Shown: one piece after another, positions 18,696 to 63,218 of the stretch
How positions within the stretch are numbered: position 1 is the first letter of the stretch
How the letters are laid out: every line of letters starts with the position of its first letter
NCBI GenBank assembly: GCA_001780895.1
Contig: MFJJ01000010.1
Location: 898-64,897, forward strand
Source of the DNA: Candidatus Gottesmanbacteria bacterium RIFCSPHIGHO2_01_FULL_46_14
GTDB lineage: Bacteria; Patescibacteriota; Microgenomatia; UBA10105; UBA927
Direction of reading: 5' to 3'
DNA: 64,000 nucleotides
Position numbers and translations under genes: made by a program
The notes under the pieces: model-generated
What the model was told of the DNA's origin: nothing
The model's input: the letters and a program-made list of their open reading frames with translations, nothing else
Databases searched by the model: none

Positions 18696-18725
18696 ATGTT
18701 ACTATGTTTCGAAACAAGATAACAT
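18696..18725. repeat. degenerate copy of the 30-bp palindrome ATGTTACTATGTTTCGAAACATAGTAACAT
   Basis: ATGTTACTATGTTTCGAAACAAGATAACAT has about 3 mismatches in the right arm. It sits 3 nt beyond the stop of the P-loop kinase gene. Confidence 0.7.
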
Positions 18726-18728
18726 GAA

Positions 18729-19244
18729 TCATCGGAAGTATTCGTGTATCCACGATTCAATCGACAATGATCCATCATAGGAAATGACATGCTCATCAGG
18801 TGTTGGAGGTTGAAAGTTATCTGCAACCTCGGTAAAATCTTCGTCTCGAACATCATATCGTTCTTTGGTTTGTCTATTGCTTTGCCAACGTTGTCTTGCG
18901 ACTGACTCGGGAATGTTTACATAAATAACTATTGAATCAGTTCCGACTTTTTCAGCTATAGCACGGAGTTTGTCTCTTTGTTCTCGCGTAAAATTAGCCG
19001 TATCGTTGATAACTGTTCTACCCTCACGTAAACGTAGTTCTGTTCGTTCATAAGAAATTCGGTATGTTTCTTTCCAATCCTCATTGGAAATTTCATCATT
19101 GCTGAGTTCTCTTAAACCTCGTTCACTATTGATTTCATCCAAATCTACGCGAACCCACCCGAAGTGCTTAACGAGTTCGTTGGCAAGAGTTGTCTTTCCT
19201 GCAAATGGTAAGCCGCAAAATATAAGAAGCACAGTCTCGTTCAT
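18729..19244 (-). CDS. P-loop kinase / AAA-type ATP-binding protein (zeta-toxin / polynucleotide-kinase-like fold)
   Basis: Walker A motif GLPFAGKTTLANEL. 171 aa with no other domain. Bracketed by 30-bp palindromes. Confidence 0.5.
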   Translation of the reverse strand: MNETVLLIFCGLPFAGKTTLANELVKHFGWVRVDLDEINSERGLRELSNDEISNEDWKETYRISYERTELRLREGRTVINDTANFTREQRDKLRAIAEKVGTDSIVIYVNIPESVARQRWQSNRQTKERYDVRDEDFTEVADNFQPPTPDEHVISYDGSLSIESWIHEYFR

Positions 19245-19250
19245 GAGATT

Positions 19251-19280
19251 ATGTTACTATGTTTCGAAACATAGTAACAT
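19251..19280. repeat. 30-bp perfect palindrome ATGTTACTATGTTTC|GAAACATAGTAACAT (putative operator, shared by divergent genes)
   Basis: Perfect 15+15 inverted repeat, 7 nt upstream of the kinase start and 17 nt upstream of the TrpR-like gene start. Confidence 0.8.
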
Positions 19281-19296
19281 AAGGCTGTAGGATTGT

Positions 19297-19737
19297 ATGA
19301 CGCAAATATCAAAATATCCTCTACGAAAAGAAATTGAGAATCGGATGCTTGAGGTTTTTCTTGATAGCATAGGGATGGTAAAAACCCGAGAACACGTCCA
19401 GAAACTCATTGATGATCTCTTCTCTCCTACCGAGCGCGTAATGCTCGCAAAACGCCTGTCTATAGCACTGTTGCTTCTTAAGAAATATGATCAGAGGACG
19501 GTAGCAAGAATACTCAACGTAAGCTTAGGAACGGTAAATAAAGTGAGCTTAGCGCTTCAGAAAGGAAATGGAGGGTATGAATTGGTCGTTAATTCTATAG
19601 TTCGACAGGAGAAATTTCACGCGTTTTTAGAGAAAATCGATGAAACACTCGTAGATATCGTTACCACGGGTCATTCTCTTCCTAATTGGCGTCGCGTGCG
19701 GTGGGAAACGAAAATCCGCAATCGAAAGCCTTACTAA
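19297..19737 (+). CDS. TrpR/YerC/YecD-like DNA-binding protein
   Basis: SPTERVMLAKRLSIALLL...QRTVARILNVSLGTVNKVS, a TrpR-like HTH of the YerC/YecD family. 146 aa. Confidence 0.55.
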   Translation: MTQISKYPLRKEIENRMLEVFLDSIGMVKTREHVQKLIDDLFSPTERVMLAKRLSIALLLLKKYDQRTVARILNVSLGTVNKVSLALQKGNGGYELVVNSIVRQEKFHAFLEKIDETLVDIVTTGHSLPNWRRVRWETKIRNRKPY

Positions 19738-19740
19738 CAC

Positions 19741-19770
19741 ATGTTACTATGTTTCGAAACATAGTAACAT
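19741..19770. repeat. 30-bp perfect palindrome, third copy
   Basis: Identical to 19251..19280. Starts 4 nt after the stop of the TrpR-like gene. Confidence 0.8.
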
Positions 19771-19825: not shown

Positions 19826-20113
19826 ATGGCAGATATTACCCAGATGTGTACGAAATGCGGGAAGAAATTTTTGATAATTAGTCAGGAACAGGAATTTCTT
19901 AAAAAGAAAAATTTGCCTCTTCCGACGCTATGCCCTTCAGATCGACAGGCAAGGCGTCTTGATGACCGCGGAGAACGAACGCTATATAAAACAACTTGTC
20001 AGGAATGTGGCGCGAACATGATTGCCTCGTATGATCCCGCAAAAGAGAAGAGTAAAATTTTTTGTAAAAATTGTTACCGGAAGTATTTCGAAACACACGA
20101 GTTGGTATCATGA
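19826..20113 (+). CDS. zinc-ribbon protein
   Basis: 95 aa with CTKC...CQEC...CKNC pairs. Its stop overlaps the ATG of the next gene (ATGA). Confidence 0.45.
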   Translation: MADITQMCTKCGKKFLIISQEQEFLKKKNLPLPTLCPSDRQARRLDDRGERTLYKTTCQECGANMIASYDPAKEKSKIFCKNCYRKYFETHELVS

Positions 20114-21006
20114 CAGCTGAAGAATTTTACTCTCAGTATCTCGTTCTCAAACATTCTCTTCCCCAGTCTGCTACGCATAGTCATAGCAACGAAAACTCAG
20201 AGTATGTAAGTTACAGTTACCGATGCAAGAATTGTTACTATTGCTTTGATTGTGTCGATTGTAGAAACTGTTTGTATTGTTTCGATTGCGTACGCAGTAA
20301 CGATTGTCTAGATGGTGATTATTGCGTTGAGTGCGAGCAACTCTACGAGTCTGTTGATGCATATCGCTGCTACAACAGTGCGTTTCTCAACTACTGTGCA
20401 CGGGTTTATGACAGCTATTTTTGTCGCAATTGTTTTGACAGTCACAATCTTTTCGGATGTGCCGATCTCAAGCAAAAACAATATTGCATTTTTAACAAGC
20501 AATATACAAAAGAAGAATACGAAAAACAGGTTATAGAGTTATTGAAAATCGTACCCAAAGAGCATCTGAAAAAATTGAATGAACTCGCGAGTCAACATCC
20601 TATTGGTCCGACGTACGTCTCGAACTCCGAAAACAGTGACTATGGCAATCAAGTGCACTACTGCACGAGCTGTTATCTTTGTTTCGACACTGCTCGAAGT
20701 AATGACTTAGCATATTCATACGATACGGCATACTGTACAAATTCAATGGATTTGACATACTGCTACAAAGCAGAACTCTGTTACGAGTGTACCGATAGTT
20801 CAAAGATTTATAACTGTGATTTTATCGAGTGGTCGAGCGAGTGCTTTGATAGCGCGTATTTAACCAATTGCAAAGATTGCCATAATTGTTTTGGCTGTGT
20901 AGAAGTTGCGCATAAACGGTTTTGTATTCTCAATAAGCAATATTCGCAAGAAGACTATAAAAAGGTAGTTAGCGAAATTGTGGTTTCTAGACAAGCGGTT
21001 CACTAA
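20110..21006 (+). CDS. Cys-rich tandem-duplicated protein (Cys every third residue: CxxCxxCFDCxxC...), unknown family
   Basis: About 33 Cys in about 298 aa. Two homologous modules of roughly 110 aa, each ending C(I)FNKQY(T/S)xE(E/D)YxK. Start trimmed to ATG 20110 (ORF track begins at 20071). Confidence 0.5.
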   Translation: MTAEEFYSQYLVLKHSLPQSATHSHSNENSEYVSYSYRCKNCYYCFDCVDCRNCLYCFDCVRSNDCLDGDYCVECEQLYESVDAYRCYNSAFLNYCARVYDSYFCRNCFDSHNLFGCADLKQKQYCIFNKQYTKEEYEKQVIELLKIVPKEHLKKLNELASQHPIGPTYVSNSENSDYGNQVHYCTSCYLCFDTARSNDLAYSYDTAYCTNSMDLTYCYKAELCYECTDSSKIYNCDFIEWSSECFDSAYLTNCKDCHNCFGCVEVAHKRFCILNKQYSQEDYKKVVSEIVVSRQAVH

Positions 21007-56774: not shown

Positions 56775-57053
56775 TTGATGCGACTGGTATTTTCCGATCA
56801 TGCGAAACGACGCATGAATGAGCGGAAAATCAGTAAAATTCTCGTTAAAGGAGTCGTAGAAGCGTTCGATTATAAGTTTCTTGATGTTTTAACTAAACAC
56901 ATTGTTTTTGTAAAAAGCATGATGTTTAGAAGAGAAAAACGGTATATTGCGGTTTCTGTCGATGAGCGTGAAGAGGAATATATAGTTGTCAGCGTTCATC
57001 CGATTCGTGATCGGGATTTTTCATCAAGAATAGAAAGTGGTAGATGGATATGA
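56775..57053 (+). CDS. DUF4258 domain protein (putative toxin)
   Basis: FSDHAKRRMNERKIS signature. 92 aa. Overlaps the downstream DUF2283 gene. Confidence 0.5.
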   Translation: MMRLVFSDHAKRRMNERKISKILVKGVVEAFDYKFLDVLTKHIVFVKSMMFRREKRYIAVSVDEREEEYIVVSVHPIRDRDFSSRIESGRWI

Positions 57054-57268
57054 AGCAAAAACCAAAAGTTTACTATGACCAAAAAGTCGATGCGTTGTGG
57101 ATCCGGGTTAAGAAAGGCCCGGAGGCAGATTCGGCTGAAATTGCTCCTGGTTTGACAGTTGAGTACAACGCAAAAGGTGACATTATCGGCCTCGAAATCC
57201 TCAATGCTTCCTCGGTATTTAATGCCGTTAAAACCCGTTCCGTTCCGCAGGAAGCATCCTACGCTTGA
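57044..57268 (+). CDS. DUF2283 domain protein (putative antitoxin)
   Basis: KVYYDQKVDALWIRV...EYNAKGDIIGLEI signature. 74 aa. Confidence 0.5.
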   Translation: MDMKQKPKVYYDQKVDALWIRVKKGPEADSAEIAPGLTVEYNAKGDIIGLEILNASSVFNAVKTRSVPQEASYA

Positions 57269-59900: not shown

Positions 59901-60986
59901 ATGTCCAAGCTCACCGATGAAGTGGAGGCACTTCGAAAAAAACTTAGTGAAGCGCACGTTCCAAAAGAATTAACAACGCGTGTTGAAGGCAATTTGGAAG
60001 AAATACTTCGTATTGAACATGACATTACTTCCCGCGCGCACATTGATCAAATCCTCCGTTACGTCGATTGGGTACTCCATCTCCCATGGGATACGCGAAC
60101 CAATGACGTTCTTGATTTACCCAAGGCACGAGAGATTCTCAATAAACACCACTACGGCTTGGAGCCAGTTAAAATCCGAATTTTGGAGTATTTAGCAATA
60201 TTGAAGCTTAACCTTGATCGCTGGAAGAATGAGTCGTCCACCAATGAGGCAAAGCTTTCTCATGCAATTTTGGCTCGTCGTGCACCGATTTTGTGTTTAG
60301 TAGGACTCGTCGGTACCGGAAAAACGACGCTTGCTAAATCGATTGCCGAGGCAATGGGGAGGCGCTACGTGCGTATTCCATTTGGAGGAATGAGTGATTC
60401 TCTGGATCTTCGTGGACAATCCCGTGTACGAGCTGATGCGGAGATAGGTTTAATCCTCAAGGGACTCCGGTTTGCCGGGACAAAAAATCCCGTGATATTG
60501 CTCGACGAAATAGACCGTGTCGCAGAACAAACCCGCGGTGACATTATGGGAGTGCTCGTTGAGCTTTTGGATCCGGAACAAAACGTCGCATTCACCGATC
60601 ATTATTTGGACTATCCGTTTGATTTATCTGAAGTCCTTTTTATCGCAACGGCCAATAATACGACCAACATCGCTACAGCAGTCCTCGATCGTTTGGAACC
60701 GATCCAGATGCCTTCCTATAGCGACGAAGAAAAGATCACTATTGCAAAAGATTATGTTCTCCCACAGCTCATGGCTGAATCAGGGCTCACGAAAGAAAAT
60801 TTAACCATTGATGAGTCCATTTGGCCTAAACTCGTCAGACCCTTGGGCTATGATGCCGGCATCAGAAGTCTCGAGCGCACCATGAATAGTCTGTGTCGCA
60901 AAGTTGCCCGCATGATTGTGGAAGGAAAGGGAAAGAGCTTCACCGTAACGCCGGAAAATATAAAGGAATTTATCGAAACGTATTAA
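59901..60986 (+). CDS. Lon-like AAA+ ATPase module lacking N-terminal LAN and C-terminal protease domains
   Basis: HYGLEPVKIRILEYLAI...LCLVGLVGTGKTTLAKSIA, then Walker B and sensor motifs. It ends exactly where the Lon protease domain would begin. Confidence 0.55.
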   Translation: MSKLTDEVEALRKKLSEAHVPKELTTRVEGNLEEILRIEHDITSRAHIDQILRYVDWVLHLPWDTRTNDVLDLPKAREILNKHHYGLEPVKIRILEYLAILKLNLDRWKNESSTNEAKLSHAILARRAPILCLVGLVGTGKTTLAKSIAEAMGRRYVRIPFGGMSDSLDLRGQSRVRADAEIGLILKGLRFAGTKNPVILLDEIDRVAEQTRGDIMGVLVELLDPEQNVAFTDHYLDYPFDLSEVLFIATANNTTNIATAVLDRLEPIQMPSYSDEEKITIAKDYVLPQLMAESGLTKENLTIDESIWPKLVRPLGYDAGIRSLERTMNSLCRKVARMIVEGKGKSFTVTPENIKEFIETY

Positions 60987-61000
60987 GCGGAATTATTATG

Positions 61001-61030
61001 ATACTGTATTACTGAACAGTAATACAGTAT
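61001..61030. repeat. palindrome ATACTGTATTACTG-aa-CAGTAATACAGTAT (14-bp arms)
   Basis: Perfect inverted repeat located between the lon-like stop and the TrpR-like gene start. Confidence 0.75.
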
Positions 61031-61050
61031 CCAGTTTATCGAAATTGAAT

Positions 61051-61440
61051 ATGACTAGGGTATCCCGAGTTCCGCTCAGTAACAAAGAGAAGTTGTCATT
61101 GACTGAAGAGTTTTGGAACACACTCGGAGAATTGAATAAAACGCAGGTCGAGCATTTTTTTAGAGAGTTCTTTTCGCCAACGGAGATTGTAATGTTTGCA
61201 AAGAGACTTCATATTTTAAAAAGTCTTCGACAGAACACTACATATGAGCACATACAACAAGGCATTAAGGTTACTGAGCCTACGATCGCCAAGATGAGTG
61301 CAATACTGCAACGCGGCGATGAAGATTTTTTCCGTATTCTTGATTACTTAATTCGTGATGAAAACAGTAGATGGCAAGCATATCTCGATTCTCGTAAACC
61401 TCACATTCGGGGAAAAATGATTTTTCATGTTAATAGATAG
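61051..61440 (+). CDS. TrpR/YerC/YecD-like DNA-binding protein (second copy)
   Basis: SPTEIVMFAKRLHILKSL...TYEHIQQGIKVTEPTIAKMS. ORF-track start 61045 is TTG; ATG is at 61051. Confidence 0.55.
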   Translation: MTRVSRVPLSNKEKLSLTEEFWNTLGELNKTQVEHFFREFFSPTEIVMFAKRLHILKSLRQNTTYEHIQQGIKVTEPTIAKMSAILQRGDEDFFRILDYLIRDENSRWQAYLDSRKPHIRGKMIFHVNR

Positions 61441-61444
61441 TTAC

Positions 61445-61466
61445 TTTATTACTGTCCAGTAATTAA
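61445..61466. repeat. palindrome TTTATTACTG-tc-CAGTAATTAA (shares the core TTACTG-N2-CAGTAA with the upstream palindrome)
   Basis: 10-bp arms with one mismatch. Starts 5 nt after the stop of the TrpR-like gene. Confidence 0.65.
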
Positions 61467-61484
61467 GTATTACATTACAGACAT

Positions 61485-63218
61485 ATGAGACGTTTTTTTC
61501 AAAGAAGAAAACAACAAACTGTTTTTCAGGGTTCTTCGGGAAGTGGGAAAGATTCAGTTCGTGTTATCCCTCTTGGCGGGACGGGGAATGTGACGAAAAA
61601 TATGTTCGTCTATGAGTATCGCTATGATGGAAAACTCCGGGATATACTTCTGGTTGATTGCGGTATCGGATTTCCAGACCCGGATATGTATGGCGTCGAT
61701 TTAGTCATACCCGATGTGCGATATTTGGAAAACAAACGAAACGCTATCAGGGGATTGGTGTTTACTCACGGACATGATGATCACATTGCGGGGATTCCCT
61801 ATGTTTATCACAAACTGGGGAGTATTCCCATGTGGGCAACGACGCTCACCGCAGCGTTTGCCAATATTAAGCTCAATGAAATTCACATTCGGGAGCGAGT
61901 CAAGGCAGTCTCGTTTGATACGACGCTTCGGATAGGGCCGTTTACCGTATCATTTGTCCGCGTGACCCACTCGGTACCAGATGCGGCGAATTTGATTATT
62001 CAAACGCCGATTGGAATGTTTTATCACGGCAGCGATTTTAAGTTTGATTTTGACCCCCTTGACGGGAAAAAATCAGAGCTCGAAAAAATTACCGCGGCGG
62101 GCAAGCGCGGAGTACTCTGTTTGCTCACTGACTCATTGGGAAGCGAACGGCCGGGGTTTACCCCGTCTGAACAGGCCGTAGGTGATACGCTGGAAAAAGA
62201 GCTCCGCTTAAGTACCGGTAAGTTTCTTTTTACCACGCAGTCGAGTAATATCTCCCGTATTCAATTAGCAATTGAACTCGGTCTCAAGTATCATCGGCAA
62301 ATTGCATTCTTAGGAAGAAGTATCGATCAGAATGTGGAAGAGGCAGTAAAACTTGGTTACATGAAGTTTCCCCGCGAGGCCTTGATCGGCGATCGGGATC
62401 TCAAACGAATTCCGGCCAATAAGCAATTCCTGGTCGTTGCCGGGAGCCAAGGGCAGTCTGATTCAGCGCTCACGCGGATTGCAAATGATACCCATCGATT
62501 TGTCCATTTAGAAGAGAGCGATACGGTGGTATTTTCAGCCGATCCGATCCCCGGGCACGAAAATGACGTGGGGAGTCTTATAGACCAAATATATCGAAAA
62601 GGCGCGCGCGTTTCCTACTCTTCCATAATGGAGGATCTTCATGTATCCGGCCACGGGAGCCAAGGCGACTTAATGCTTATGCTTTCAGCATTAGGTCCCA
62701 GATATGTGTTTCCTATCGGAGGGACGTATCGTCACACCATGCAATATCGAAGATTGGCCCAAGACATTGGATACGAGAAGCGCGATATTCTTATTCCGGA
62801 AGAAGGCGATGTCATAGAATTTCGGTCCGATGCTCCCCCCAGGGTTGCAGAACGCATAGCCCTAGAAAACGTCATGATAGACGGATTGGGAATTGGAGAT
62901 GTTGGCGATATCGTCCTGCGTGATCGCCAAACGATAGCCAAAGAAGGAATTGTTGTCGTGGTTGTACCGATTGAGCAGTCATCGAGTCGTGTGGTCGGAG
63001 GAGTTGATATTATTTCACGCGGATTTGTCTATATGAGGCAATCGGGGAAATTGGTTGATGATGCCAAGCGTATCGTGTCAGCTTCTCTGAAGCTTCGAAA
63101 AGGCCGAATGGTCGATTGGCAATTTGCGAGAAAACAAATAGAAGAAGAACTTGCACGATTTCTCAAGCGCGAAACCGGCCGAAATCCTTTGATTGTCCCC
63201 GTTTTAGTTGAAGTATAA
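61485..63218 (+). CDS. rnj: ribonuclease J (metallo-beta-lactamase / beta-CASP)
   Basis: VFTHGHDDHIAG motif and beta-CASP motifs. 577 aa. Confidence 0.85.
   Translation: MRRFFQRRKQQTVFQGSSGSGKDSVRVIPLGGTGNVTKNMFVYEYRYDGKLRDILLVDCGIGFPDPDMYGVDLVIPDVRYLENKRNAIRGLVFTHGHDDHIAGIPYVYHKLGSIPMWATTLTAAFANIKLNEIHIRERVKAVSFDTTLRIGPFTVSFVRVTHSVPDAANLIIQTPIGMFYHGSDFKFDFDPLDGKKSELEKITAAGKRGVLCLLTDSLGSERPGFTPSEQAVGDTLEKELRLSTGKFLFTTQSSNISRIQLAIELGLKYHRQIAFLGRSIDQNVEEAVKLGYMKFPREALIGDRDLKRIPANKQFLVVAGSQGQSDSALTRIANDTHRFVHLEESDTVVFSADPIPGHENDVGSLIDQIYRKGARVSYSSIMEDLHVSGHGSQGDLMLMLSALGPRYVFPIGGTYRHTMQYRRLAQDIGYEKRDILIPEEGDVIEFRSDAPPRVAERIALENVMIDGLGIGDVGDIVLRDRQTIAKEGIVVVVVPIEQSSSRVVGGVDIISRGFVYMRQSGKLVDDAKRIVSASLKLRKGRMVDWQFARKQIEEELARFLKRETGRNPLIVPVLVEV

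What the first reader, a model, noticed from the sequence alone, without database searches (positions are those of the whole stretch)
60987..61484. A second TrpR/YerC-like gene is also flanked by palindromes with a related half-site (ATTACTG-N2-CAGTAAT)
The architecture palindrome-regulator gene-palindrome recurs 41 kb away, here inserted between a lon-like gene and rnj. The two flanking palindromes share the core TTACTG-NN-CAGTAA. That core resembles the GTTACTA...TAGTAAC half-sites of the first locus. This points to a family of small palindrome-bounded regulator cassettes, or auto-regulated repressors with their cognate operators on both sides.
Basis: seen in the sequence. Interest (0 to 1): 0.65.

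Follow-up and report, generated by a model that had tools for sequence, protein, structure and literature searches.

The report
Repressor gene bracketed by its operators
A small TrpR/HisR-type repressor gene in a Gottesmanbacteria (CPR) genome carries a copy of its own palindromic binding site at each end, and this gene-plus-two-sites module recurs across related bacteria and has been inserted here between two normally adjacent housekeeping genes.

Summary
A 129-aa TrpR-family gene (61051-61440) is flanked by palindromes at 61000-61031 and 61442-61469. Both share ATTACTG-N2-CAGTAAT, which occurs nowhere else in the 64 kb.

In 30 of 38 related loci (Gottesman-, Levy-, Shapirobacteria and others) the 120-nt flanks share an exact word of at least 13 nt. 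Only 4 of 200 other ORFs do.

- The palindrome sequence differs between lineages and tracks the recognition helix.
- Each arm holds two 8-bp units, the spacing of TrpR tandem binding.
- In Levybacteria the 5' copy sits inside a consensus TTGACA-17-TATCAT promoter placed 6-14 nt before the ATG.

Six fetched loci from relatives (five distinct sequences) have lon-AAA directly abutting rnj, with no such gene and no palindrome. The finding's 498 bp is therefore an inserted module.

Best reading: an autorepressor with twin four-unit operators. The 5' copy occludes its own promoter. The 3' copy is a second operator that gates transcription across the 3' boundary, here into rnj.

A role for the palindromes in moving cassettes is not excluded. 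RNA hairpin or terminator roles are disfavoured.

I rate it a new variant of a known kind. All conclusions are computational; no binding has been shown.

The parts
60987..61484 (+). The whole inserted module (palindrome, regulator gene, palindrome) between the lon-AAA stop codon and the rnj start codon.
   Evidence: Relatives L043/L044, L045, L046, L051 and L052 have lon-AAA followed by rnj after 0-53 nt. They have no TrpR-like gene, and their best P2-PWM score is at most 1.8 bits. The module is 36.5% G+C against 46-49.5% for the flanking genes.
61000..61031 (.). 5' operator P2a. A perfect 15+2+15 palindrome made of four 8-bp units: gATACTGt ATTACTGa | aCAGTAAT aCAGTATc.
   Evidence: I2; two overlapping TACTG-N10-CAGTA sites, 8 bp apart. 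The inner units are conserved in L001 and L002.
60973..61002 (+). Promoter-like site TCGAAA-18-TATGAT. Its -10 hexamer overlaps the left edge of P2a. Tentative.
   Evidence: 9 of 12 consensus matches. The number of such sites in the region is no more than shuffles give, so this is an inference only.
61051..61440 (+). TrpR/HisR-family regulator gene, paralogue 2 (129 aa).
   Evidence: Pfam PF01371 41.1 bits against cut-off 27. AF2 model pLDDT 84.5, best matched by 3KOR, 3G1C and 3FRW and then by E. coli TrpR. Homologues P0001-P0003 are 67-71% identical and start with the same MT(R/K)VS.
61442..61469 (.). 3' operator P2b. A 13+2+13 palindrome with one mismatch, 1 nt after the stop codon and 15 nt before the rnj ATG.
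   Evidence: The 26-nt core ACTTTATTACTGTCCAGTAATTAAGT is identical in the window, L001 and L002, while the sequence on either side differs.
59901..60986 (+). Upstream flank: Lon-like AAA+ ATPase (AAA and Lon_lid domains, no protease domain).
61485..63218 (+). Downstream flank: RNase J gene. Any transcript entering it must cross or start at P2b.
   Evidence: RNase_J_b_CASP, RNase_J_C. Geometry.
19297..19737 (+). Paralogue 1 (146 aa), a member of the widespread Microgenomates subfamily.
   Evidence: Pfam 50.6 bits. 98 homologues, one of them 100% identical and from a Candidatus Gottesmanbacteria genome.
19249..19282 (.). P1b, a perfect 34-bp palindrome between the divergent kinase gene and TrpR-like gene 1. 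TAACAT lies 6 nt before the kinase ATG on the minus strand and 16 nt before the TrpR-like ATG on the plus strand.
   Evidence: (I1).
19741..19770 (.). P1c, a perfect 30-bp palindrome 3 nt after the stop codon of TrpR-like gene 1.
   Evidence: (I4).
18696..18725 (.). P1a, a third and slightly imperfect copy between the convergent rmuC and kinase genes.
   Evidence: I8; 45.5 bits.
18729..19244 (-). AAA_33/polynucleotide-kinase-like gene that fits exactly between P1a and P1b.
   Evidence: It is one of only four control ORFs with matching flanks.

Best explanation
The locus is a self-contained autoregulatory module. It consists of a long-form TrpR/HisR-family repressor gene bracketed by two copies of its own operator.

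**Operator structure.** Each operator is a roughly 28-32-bp palindrome built from four 8-bp units, two direct and two inverted. That gives two overlapping dimer sites 8 bp apart, as in tandem binding of E. coli TrpR. This part is inferred by homology.

**The 5' copy.** It overlaps the gene's own core promoter, so the protein represses its own transcription. The promoter overlap is seen directly in the Levybacteria sequences and is inferred for this window.

**The 3' copy.** It sits 1 nt after the stop codon and acts as a second operator.
- It can cooperate with the 5' copy, raising local occupancy.
- It gates RNA polymerase crossing the 3' boundary. In this genome, where the module sits between lon-AAA and rnj, only 15 nt separate P2b from the rnj start codon. 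Every rnj transcript must therefore cross or start at P2b, which places rnj under this repressor's control. The geometry is shown; the effect is inferred.

**Evolution.** The module is gained, lost and moved as one unit. Its operator sequence changes together with the recognition helix, so the two paralogues in this genome should not cross-talk.
For: **Family and fold.**
- Pfam Trp_repressor scores are above the cut-off for both genes.
- A profile search of PDB finds the YerC/HisR-like structures 3KOR, 3FRW and 3G1C at E 1e-14 to 1e-12, and E. coli TrpR at about 2e-3.
- The AF2 model is matched best by the same structures.

**Generality.**
- 30 of 38 TrpR-like genes share an exact word of at least 13 nt between their 120-nt flanks. 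Only 4 of 200 other ORFs do (Fisher p about 2e-26). Two of those four are the gene next door, bracketed by a third copy.
- More distant members L047-L050 show the same layout.

**The sites travel with the gene.**
- In L001 and L002 a dCMP deaminase gene lies between lon and the module.
- In L003 the downstream gene is not rnj.

**Selection on the sites.** The 26-nt core of P2b is identical in three genomes whose proteins are 69-71% identical and whose flanking sequence differs.

**Specificity.**
- The palindrome class follows the recognition helix. Examples: VSLGTVNKVS with ATGTTAYCATGTTTYRAAACATGRTAACAT; VTPPTIASVS with CACTTWAATGATATATATCATTWAAGTG; VTEPTIAKMS with ATTACTG-N2-CAGTAAT.
- The Levybacteria half-site CACTTTA equals the published HisR consensus cacTTTA-N6-TAAAgtg, with the outer half-sites 8 bp further apart (PMC9413887).

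**8-bp units.**
- Within-arm identity at an offset of 8 nt is 0.56 against 0.34 in shuffles (z = 14). No other offset peaks.
- Each palindrome is hit twice, 8 bp apart, by a single-dimer pattern.

**Promoter overlap.**
- 8 of 8 Levybacteria-type 5' copies lie within TTGACA-17-TAT(C/T)AT, with the ATG 6-14 nt further on. None of the 8 3' copies has the TTGACA.
- In the Gottesman type, TAACAT lies 6-9 nt before the ATG in six loci and 16 nt before it at window locus 1. It is mirrored for the kinase gene in this window.
- In L026 both copies follow a TGnTATAAT.

**Local targets only.** No other site of either type is found in the 64-kb window.
Against: - No binding has been shown. Everything rests on sequence comparison.
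- The link between helix and palindrome could partly reflect shared descent of a unit that evolves together, rather than co-adaptation.
- In about nine Gottesman-type loci the next gene is convergent. There the 3' copy cannot be a promoter operator, and its role is unexplained beyond cooperation or insulation.
- Centre-to-centre distances are 430-573 bp and show no preferred helical phase. This gives no positive sign of looping.
- For this window's locus the promoter assignment is weak. The consensus scan finds no more sites than shuffles do.
- Neighbouring genes are unrelated housekeeping genes. No coherent regulon or ligand can be named.
- A few loci lack one copy (L011, L015, L028, L032).
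Confidence: 0.6

Rival explanations
1. Mobile or recombining cassette. The palindromes are primarily recombination sites, acted on by a recombinase encoded elsewhere or by homologous exchange. They allow the regulator gene and other genes to be inserted, excised and reordered. Any operator function is secondary or absent.
For: - The lon-AAA|rnj junction is tight and empty in six fetched loci from relatives (five distinct sequences). In trees of lon and pnp the window's nearest relatives (L051, L052) are empty, while the more distant L001 is filled. The distribution is therefore patchy.
- The module has lower G+C than its flanks.
- At locus 1, variable genes sit between extra palindrome copies. 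The window has rmuC-P-kinase-P-TRP-P, L008 has rmuC-P-EamA-NUDIX-P-TRP-P-MFS, and L015 has rmuC-TRP-NUDIX-P-MFS. Module order differs between genomes.
- In several loci the two copies share the same asymmetry, so they are direct repeats of each other.
- Genomic contexts are very diverse.
Against: - No recombinase or transposase is part of the module, and none was seen beside it in the loci examined.
- There is no target-site duplication and no palindrome remnant at the empty junctions.
- No relatives were found in viral contigs, and there are no PHROG or PADLOC hits.
- Close relatives share context (L020/L021; L031/L033/L034), and rmuC-TRP synteny holds across Gottesmanbacteria. That is what vertical descent would give.
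- This reading does not explain the TrpR-like 8-bp unit structure, the HisR-like half-site or the promoter overlap.
- Spread of an insertion by ordinary homologous recombination in the conserved flanking genes would also give a patchy pattern.
Confidence: 0.15
2. The 3' copy exists only to regulate the next gene. The regulator's promoter-operator was duplicated in front of the downstream gene, so the regulon is the regulator plus that neighbour. The two copies do not interact.
For: - In about two thirds of loci the next gene is co-directional and starts 4-120 nt after the 3' copy.
- In L026 both copies are preceded by TGnTATAAT and followed by a Shine-Dalgarno sequence and an ATG.
- In L050 the 3' copy repeats the 5' copy up to an ATG.
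- In this window P2b ends 15 nt before the rnj start codon.
Against: - In about nine loci the next gene is convergent, yet the 3' copy is still there and well conserved.
- The Levybacteria 3' copies lack the TTGACA that every 5' copy has.
- P1a lies between two convergent genes.
- The 3' copy hugs the regulator's stop codon (-20 to +10 nt in most loci) rather than sitting at a fixed distance from the next start codon.
Confidence: 0.18
3. The palindromes act as RNA hairpins, either as terminators or stabilisers or as processing sites. For example they could punctuate the pnp-lon-rnj transcript. Their similarity to each other would be maintained by gene conversion.
For: - The perfect palindromes fold stably as RNA: -14 to -18 kcal/mol, z about -6.7.
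- They sit at gene boundaries, some between convergent genes.
Against: - No terminator-like sites are found. There is no G+C-rich stem and no U tract.
- P2b folds weakly, at -7.4 kcal/mol, z = -2.7.
- The arms of one palindrome are no more alike than arms of different copies (Wilcoxon p = 0.78), and shared asymmetries are conserved.
- Among non-Watson-Crick positions, G.T accounts for only 9 of 57, against 20 A.C. There is no wobble signature on the sense strand.
- Many palindromes are symmetric through their centre with no spacer, which a loop does not need.
- If the promoter assignment is right, the 5' copy is largely not transcribed.
- No Rfam family matches.
Confidence: 0.05

Closest known systems
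HisR (YerC) histidine repressor of Firmicutes, TrpR family (PMC9413887; structures 3KOR, 3FRW, 3G1C)
   Same: - These are the closest solved relatives by sequence profile and by fold.
- Both use palindromic operators.
- About half of hisR genes are preceded by their own site, implying autoregulation.
- The Levybacteria half-site CACTTTA is identical to the HisR consensus half-site.
   Different: - The proteins here are 129-150 aa, with an added C-terminal helix and basic tail. HisR is under 100 aa.
- They score below the NCBIfam YerC/YecD cut-off (28.9 and 34.6 against 42.2).
- The operators are about 28-34 bp with four units, not 20 bp.
- A second copy follows the stop codon.
- No histidine genes lie nearby. 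CPR bacteria generally lack such biosynthesis pathways (my own knowledge).
E. coli Trp repressor and its operators (tandem binding; PDB 1TRR, 1TRO)
   Same: - The fold is the same.
- TrpR represses its own gene from a promoter-overlapping operator.
- Half-sites of the form NNACT recur every 8 bp. TrpR uses GNACT; here the units are ATACT and TTACT.
- Several dimers can bind side by side.
   Different: - The sequence relationship is distant: E about 2e-3, and TIGR01321 scores 17-25 bits against a cut-off of 67.
- trpR has one operator, upstream of the gene, and a defined regulon of trp, aro and mtr genes.
- No operator at the 3' end of trpR is known (my own knowledge).
Repressors with auxiliary operators and DNA looping (lac O1/O2/O3, gal OE/OI, deo; lambda CI with OL and OR flanking the immunity region)
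   Same: Two or more copies of one operator lie a few hundred bp apart around the regulated gene. This arrangement typically serves cooperative binding.
   Different: - Here the two copies bracket the repressor's own short gene precisely at its start and stop codons.
- The layout is conserved across a whole protein subfamily.
- Tetramer formation is untested, and no helical phasing is seen.
Site-bounded gene cassettes (integron attC cassettes; Acinetobacter pdif modules)
   Same: - Short genes are bounded by imperfect palindromic sites.
- Presence varies at a fixed junction.
- Extra sites bracket variable neighbouring genes.
   Different: - No integrase or Xer-type partner has been identified here.
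- The sites are specific to each regulator lineage rather than shared by all cassettes.
- They have the unit structure of TrpR-family operators.
- No site is left at the empty junctions.

Membership tests
TrpR family (Pfam PF01371, Trp_repressor) | The profile HMM score exceeds the curated gathering cut-off. | tested here: met
   41.1 bits (locus 2) and 50.6 bits (locus 1) against a cut-off of 27.
TrpR family (Pfam PF01371, Trp_repressor) | All-helical TrpR fold with a helix-turn-helix. | tested here: met
   The AF2 model (pLDDT 84.5) has six helices. Top Foldseek matches are 3KOR, 3G1C and 3FRW (target TM 0.73-0.79 for the top-listed chains), followed by E. coli TrpR entries.
TrpR family (Pfam PF01371, Trp_repressor) | Binds a palindromic operator as an intertwined dimer. 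| not testable with these tools
   Binding is inferred from the conserved flanking palindromes and their 8-bp unit structure. No binding data exist.
YerC/YecD = HisR subfamily (NCBIfam TIGR02531) | The score exceeds the curated cut-off of 42.2 bits. | tested here: not met
   28.9 and 34.6 bits. The proteins are related to this branch but fall outside the equivalog.
YerC/YecD = HisR subfamily (NCBIfam TIGR02531) | A 20-bp operator cacTTTA-N6-TAAAgtg placed before his or histidine-transport genes. | tested here: not met
   The window's sites are ATTACTG-N2-CAGTAAT and ATGTTAC...GTAACAT. The Levybacteria sites share CACTTTA but with 14 nt between the half-sites. Neighbouring genes are unrelated to histidine metabolism.
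Trp operon repressor proper (NCBIfam TIGR01321) | The score exceeds the cut-off of 67.25 bits. | tested here: not met
   17.3 and 24.7 bits.
TrpR-type tandem operator | Half-sites repeated at 8-bp spacing, so that adjacent dimers overlap. | tested here: met
   Identity at offset 8 is 0.56 against 0.34 in shuffles, z = 14. Single-dimer patterns hit each palindrome twice, 8 bp apart.
Looping repressors with auxiliary operators | At least two cognate operators lie within looping distance of the regulated promoter. | tested here: met
   The two copies are 440 bp apart here and 430-573 bp apart across loci.
Looping repressors with auxiliary operators | The protein forms tetramers or higher oligomers that bridge the sites, and site spacing is phased with the DNA helix. 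| tested here: inconclusive
   Oligomeric state cannot be tested here. Distances modulo 10.5 bp are spread evenly, which says little for loops longer than 400 bp.
Site-specific gene cassettes (integron or pdif-like) | A dedicated recombinase and a site left at the empty target. | tested here: not met
   The empty lon|rnj junctions carry no palindrome; the best PWM score is at most 1.8 bits. No recombinase gene was seen beside the modules, but whole genomes were not searched.
Site-specific gene cassettes (integron or pdif-like) | Presence or absence varies at a fixed junction. | tested here: met
   Four filled loci (window, L001, L002, L003) against six empty fetched loci, five of them distinct sequences (L043/L044, L045, L046, L051, L052). 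The pattern is patchy on the lon and pnp trees.
Intrinsic transcription terminators | A G+C-rich stem followed by a U tract. | tested here: not met
   No terminator-like sites are found at either locus. The stems are A+T-rich and no T run follows. P2b folds at only -7.4 kcal/mol.

The most novel reading that the evidence does not exclude
The module is a new kind of minimal mobile unit in CPR bacteria: an operator-bounded cassette. Its palindromes would serve both as the repressor's operators and as the sites through which the cassette, and neighbouring genes that acquire a copy, are inserted, excised and reordered.

This would account for four observations:
- the patchy insertion at the lon|rnj junction;
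- the kinase gene and the EamA-NUDIX genes bracketed by extra copies;
- the different module order in L008 and L015;
- the absence of any conserved target gene.
Probability: 0.12. Interest if true: 0.85.

Novelty: new variant of a known kind. Interest (0 to 1): 0.6.

Why it matters
CPR/Patescibacteria have very few recognisable transcription factors, and almost nothing is known about how they regulate genes.

**What this adds.**
- This is a large subfamily of TrpR/HisR-like proteins, mostly about 147 aa. A profile search found 1,774 clusters (at 50% identity) with E <= 1e-10 and 100 with E <= 1e-30.
- For these proteins the cognate DNA site can be read straight from the genome, because each gene carries two copies of it.

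**What that makes possible.**
- It provides dozens of natural protein-operator pairs with different specificities. These can be used to study how recognition in the TrpR fold changes.
- It gives sequence-based evidence for sigma-70-type promoters and probable leaderless transcripts in Microgenomates.
- It offers a simple, testable case of a regulator whose only evident high-affinity sites bracket its own gene.

**In this genome.** The module splits the otherwise tightly coupled lon-AAA/rnj pair. RNase J expression may therefore have come under the control of a newly inserted repressor.

**If the palindromes also mediate insertion.** That would be a new form of gene mobility in organisms with minimal genomes.

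Tried and rejected
- **Other sites in the window.** I searched with exact and mismatch patterns, symmetrised PWMs and single-dimer patterns. Nothing rose above chance.
- **tRNA or known RNA genes** in the long gaps after the 3' copies of loci with convergent neighbours, and in the window. None was found. The one sub-threshold hit, a microRNA precursor model at 29.5 bits against a cut-off of 86, is a generic hairpin match.
- **Small conserved ORFs** in those gaps. None was evident.
- **Hairpin selection.** Arm symmetry within a palindrome is no better than similarity between copies, and there is no G.U excess. Rejected.
- **Terminators.** None predicted.
- **Phage or defence origin.** No viral relatives, and no PHROG or PADLOC hits for the regulators.
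- **Replication origin, terminus or dif.** GC skew is uniformly positive across the window, and there are five sites of two kinds within 64 kb, which does not fit a single dif site.
- **A conserved neighbouring target gene.** Upstream and downstream neighbours belong to more than 30 unrelated families.
- **Helical phasing of the two copies.** None seen.
- **Technical limits.**
  - A combined alignment of both paralogue families was too diverse for the locus search.
  - The metagenome scan for paralogue 2 returned only three distant loci.
Full report
**Observation**

- The lon-like gene ends at 60986.
- A perfect 15+2+15 palindrome, GATACTGTATTACTG-aa-CAGTAATACAGTATC, occupies 61000-61031.
- An ORF with a conserved MTRVS start runs from 61051 to 61440.
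- A 13+2+13 palindrome with one mismatch, TACTTTATTACTG-tc-CAGTAATTAAGTA, occupies 61442-61469.
- rnj starts at 61485.

The shared core TTACTGNNCAGTAA occurs exactly twice in the window. It did not occur in any of 100 shuffles, and no further site appears at up to two mismatches. A PWM built from the sites scores 39-42 bits on them and at most 4.3 bits anywhere else.

The ORF is a Trp_repressor family member (41.1 bits against a cut-off of 27). The flanking genes are a Lon-like AAA+ ATPase without a protease domain and RNase J.

The first locus lies 41.7 kb away. Its TrpR-like gene (19297-19737) is 29% identical to this one. It has three copies, not two, of ATGTTACTATGTTTC|GAAACATAGTAACAT. The third copy lies on the far side of a kinase-like gene (18729-19244, minus strand) that fits exactly between two copies.

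Four of the five palindromes rank I1, I2, I4 and I8 among the window's 25 longest inverted repeats. The window holds only these two TrpR-like genes.

**Where the window comes from**

Paralogue 1 is 100% identical to a protein of a Candidatus Gottesmanbacteria genome (CPR, Microgenomates). It has 98 homologues in that group. Paralogue 2 is rare: only three close homologues, at 67-71% identity.

**The architecture is general**

I fetched loci for the paralogue-2 relatives (L001-L003). I also fetched 34 GTDB genome loci of the paralogue-1 family, three distant metagenome loci and three more distant members.

In nearly all of them a long, near-perfect palindrome lies 0-25 nt before the start codon. 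A matching one usually lies within 40 nt after the stop codon, occasionally up to 80 nt, and sometimes overlaps it.

As a test I took the longest exact word shared by the 120-nt upstream and downstream flanks.
- It is at least 13 nt in 30 of 38 TrpR-like genes.
- It is at least 13 nt in only 4 of 200 other ORFs in the same loci (Fisher p about 2e-26).
- Two of those four control ORFs are the gene next to the regulator, bracketed by a third copy.

The palindromes stay with the regulator when its neighbours change.
- In L001 and L002 a dCMP deaminase gene lies between lon and the module.
- In L003 the downstream gene is not rnj.

The 26-nt core of the 3' copy is identical in the window, L001 and L002. 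Their proteins are only 69-71% identical, and the adjoining bases differ. This points to strong selection on the 3' copy itself.

**What the palindromes are**

The palindrome sequence differs between lineages and follows the recognition helix.

| Recognition helix | Palindrome |
|---|---|
| VSLGTVNKVS | ATGTTAYCATGTTTYRAAACATGRTAACAT |
| VTPPTIASVS | CACTTWAATGATATATATCATTWAAGTG |
| VSKPTIAIVN | GGTAAAGTGGTTTGAACCACTTTACC |
| VSVTTVNSVN | TGTTTTAATGTTTTAAAACATTAAAACA |
| VTEPTIAKMS | ATTACTG-N2-CAGTAAT |
| VGEPTIAKMS | ATACTTACTTAC-N6-GTAAGTAAGTAT |

Each arm consists of two 8-bp units. Self-identity within arms is 0.56 at an offset of 8 nt against 0.34 in shuffles (z = 14), and no other offset peaks. 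Single-dimer patterns hit every palindrome twice, 8 bp apart.

Eight bp is the spacing of GNACT half-sites in E. coli TrpR tandem binding, as summarised in PMC9413887 and seen in PDB entry 1TRR. The same paper shows that B. subtilis YerC is HisR, a TrpR-family histidine repressor whose consensus site is cacTTTA-N6-TAAAgtg. The Levybacteria palindromes have exactly CACTTTA...TAAAGTG, with the half-sites 8 bp further apart. That is what two overlapping HisR-type sites offset by 8 bp would look like.

The proteins are closest to the solved YerC/HisR-like structures 3KOR, 3FRW and 3G1C, both by profile (E 1e-14 to 1e-12) and by fold. They are nevertheless longer (129-150 aa) and fall below the NCBIfam YerC/YecD and TrpR cut-offs.

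**Promoter overlap**

All eight Levybacteria-type 5' copies are embedded in TTGACA-17-TAT(C/T)AT. The ATG follows 6-14 nt after the -10 hexamer. None of the eight 3' copies has the TTGACA. The operator thus covers the spacer and -10 region of a consensus promoter, and the transcript is probably leaderless or nearly so. That last point is an inference.

In the Gottesman type, the outer right arm TAACAT lies 6-9 nt before the ATG in six loci. At window locus 1 it lies 16 nt before the TrpR-like ATG. The same hexamer, mirrored, lies 6 nt before the kinase ATG on the other strand. One palindrome could therefore serve both divergent genes.

In L026 both copies follow a TGnTATAAT and precede a Shine-Dalgarno sequence and an ATG. 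There the 3' copy is a complete promoter-operator for the next gene.

For this window's locus 2 the only promoter-like match is TCGAAA-18-TATGAT, which overlaps the left edge of P2a. It is weak evidence.

**DNA-level, not RNA-level**

- The arms of one palindrome are no more alike than arms of different copies in the same locus (p = 0.78). Several loci keep the same asymmetry in both copies.
- G.T accounts for only 9 of 57 non-Watson-Crick positions, against 20 A.C.
- No terminator-like sites are found.
- P2b folds at only -7.4 kcal/mol and has no U tract.
- No Rfam family matches.

**The module is an insertion at this junction**

The Lon-like ATPase is highly conserved: 76-86% identity across the best 120 listed clusters. 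In six fetched loci from relatives (five distinct sequences: L043/L044, L045, L046, L051, L052) lon-AAA is followed by rnj after 0-53 nt. Examples are TAAATG, TGATTATG and TAAAAATG. These loci have no TrpR-like gene and no palindrome.

In neighbour-joining trees of lon and pnp, the window groups with the empty L051 and L052. The filled L001 branches far away. The distribution is patchy.

The module has 36.5% G+C against 46-49.5% for its flanks.

At locus 1 the rmuC-TRP synteny is conserved, but variable genes lie between extra palindrome copies.
- The window has a kinase gene.
- L008 has EamA and NUDIX genes.
- L015 has the NUDIX gene on the other side of the regulator.

These facts support the cassette description. 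They do not identify a mobility mechanism. No recombinase is associated, empty sites keep no palindrome, there is no target duplication, and there are no viral or defence links. Spread by ordinary homologous recombination in the conserved flanking genes would give the same pattern.

**What the 3' copy does**

Neighbouring genes are unrelated housekeeping genes. They include aaRS genes, RecR, an FeS-assembly protein, NusG, GAPDH, MFS and EamA transporters and others. In about nine loci the next gene is convergent. The 3' copy therefore cannot be explained in general as the operator of a conserved target.

It hugs the regulator's stop codon. I conclude that it is an intrinsic part of the module: a second operator for cooperative occupancy and for control of transcription across the 3' boundary. 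In some genomes it has been co-opted as the next gene's promoter-operator.

In this window the geometry is unambiguous. Only 15 nt separate P2b from the rnj ATG. Every rnj transcript must cross or begin at P2b, so rnj is predicted to be gated by this repressor. Centre-to-centre spacing (430-573 bp) shows no helical phasing, so looping remains an inference.

**Scale and novelty**

A profile of the family finds 4,589 cluster representatives at E <= 1e-3, 1,774 at E <= 1e-10 and 100 at E <= 1e-30. Most are about 147 aa.

Literature searches found two relevant papers.
- The HisR work (PMC9413887) reports upstream autoregulatory sites only.

I found no description of the twin-operator module. I therefore rate it a new variant of a known kind: an autoregulated TrpR/HisR-family repressor.

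**Limits**

No binding, oligomer or transcript data exist. Genome-wide site counts could not be made. The link between helix and site may partly reflect common descent.

Noticed in passing
window 59901-60986: The Lon-like gene encodes only the AAA+ and Lon_lid domains (361 aa, no protease domain). Copies 76-86% identical make up the best 120 listed protein clusters. In every locus examined it follows S15 and pnp, and in most it abuts rnj.
   Followed up: partly
window 18696-19282: An AAA_33/polynucleotide-kinase-like gene (18729-19244, minus strand) fits between two P1 palindromes with 3-4 nt to spare on each side. On its strand, TAACAT lies 6 nt before its ATG, which suggests a leaderless transcript from the mirrored half of the same palindrome.
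   Followed up: partly
L009 3028-4788; L038 3079-4491; L049 2175-3453: Aminoacyl-tRNA synthetase genes (AlaRS, MetRS, ThrRS) recur directly after the 3' palindrome. [quoted passage not shown] This hints at amino-acid-responsive control, but the numbers are small.
   Followed up: no
L037 108-2947; L041 4001-7914: TrpR-like genes lie near the lon-AAA gene in three separate lineages. In the window, L001, L002 and L003 the gene follows lon. In L037 it is divergent from lon-AAA/rnj. In L041 it lies 2.4 kb upstream of lon. Paralogue 2 is closest to the L041 protein, at 40% identity.
   Followed up: partly
L008 942-3051; L015 2501-3540: The order of the units between palindromes differs. L008 has rmuC-P-EamA-NUDIX-P-TRP-P-MFS3, and L015 has rmuC-TRP-NUDIX-P-MFS3. 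The NUDIX gene is on opposite sides of the regulator in the two genomes.
   Followed up: partly
L050 1950-2015: The 3' copy resembles the 5' copy together with the sequence that follows it up to an ATG (ATCATTG[A/C]AGCGCTATG). It is split by a 23-nt insert, as if the whole 5' control region had been duplicated and then disrupted.
   Followed up: no
L047 1429-1910; L048: The called start of P0101 is probably wrong. An in-frame ATG 48 nt upstream restores the conserved MPQVSRIPL N-terminus and lies 2 nt after the palindrome TTCGATGATTCGATTCATCGAA. The 3' copy overlaps the stop codon.
   Followed up: partly
L012 1271-1318: A 48-nt G+C-rich near-perfect palindrome (TTTCATAAGGCCTCCCCCTGCAGTACTGCAGGGGGAGGCCTTGAGAAA) lies before rmuC. 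It is unrelated to the TrpR-type sites.
   Followed up: no
window 19826-21006: After P1c comes a treble-clef zinc-finger gene (zf_Tbcl, 95 aa). It is followed by a 311-aa cysteine-rich ORF with no Pfam match.
   Followed up: no
window 56775-57268: Two small overlapping ORFs (92 and 74 aa) lie just upstream of the S15 gene. In L043 a PIN-domain gene occupies the corresponding position. This may be a toxin-antitoxin pair; I did not test it.
   Followed up: no
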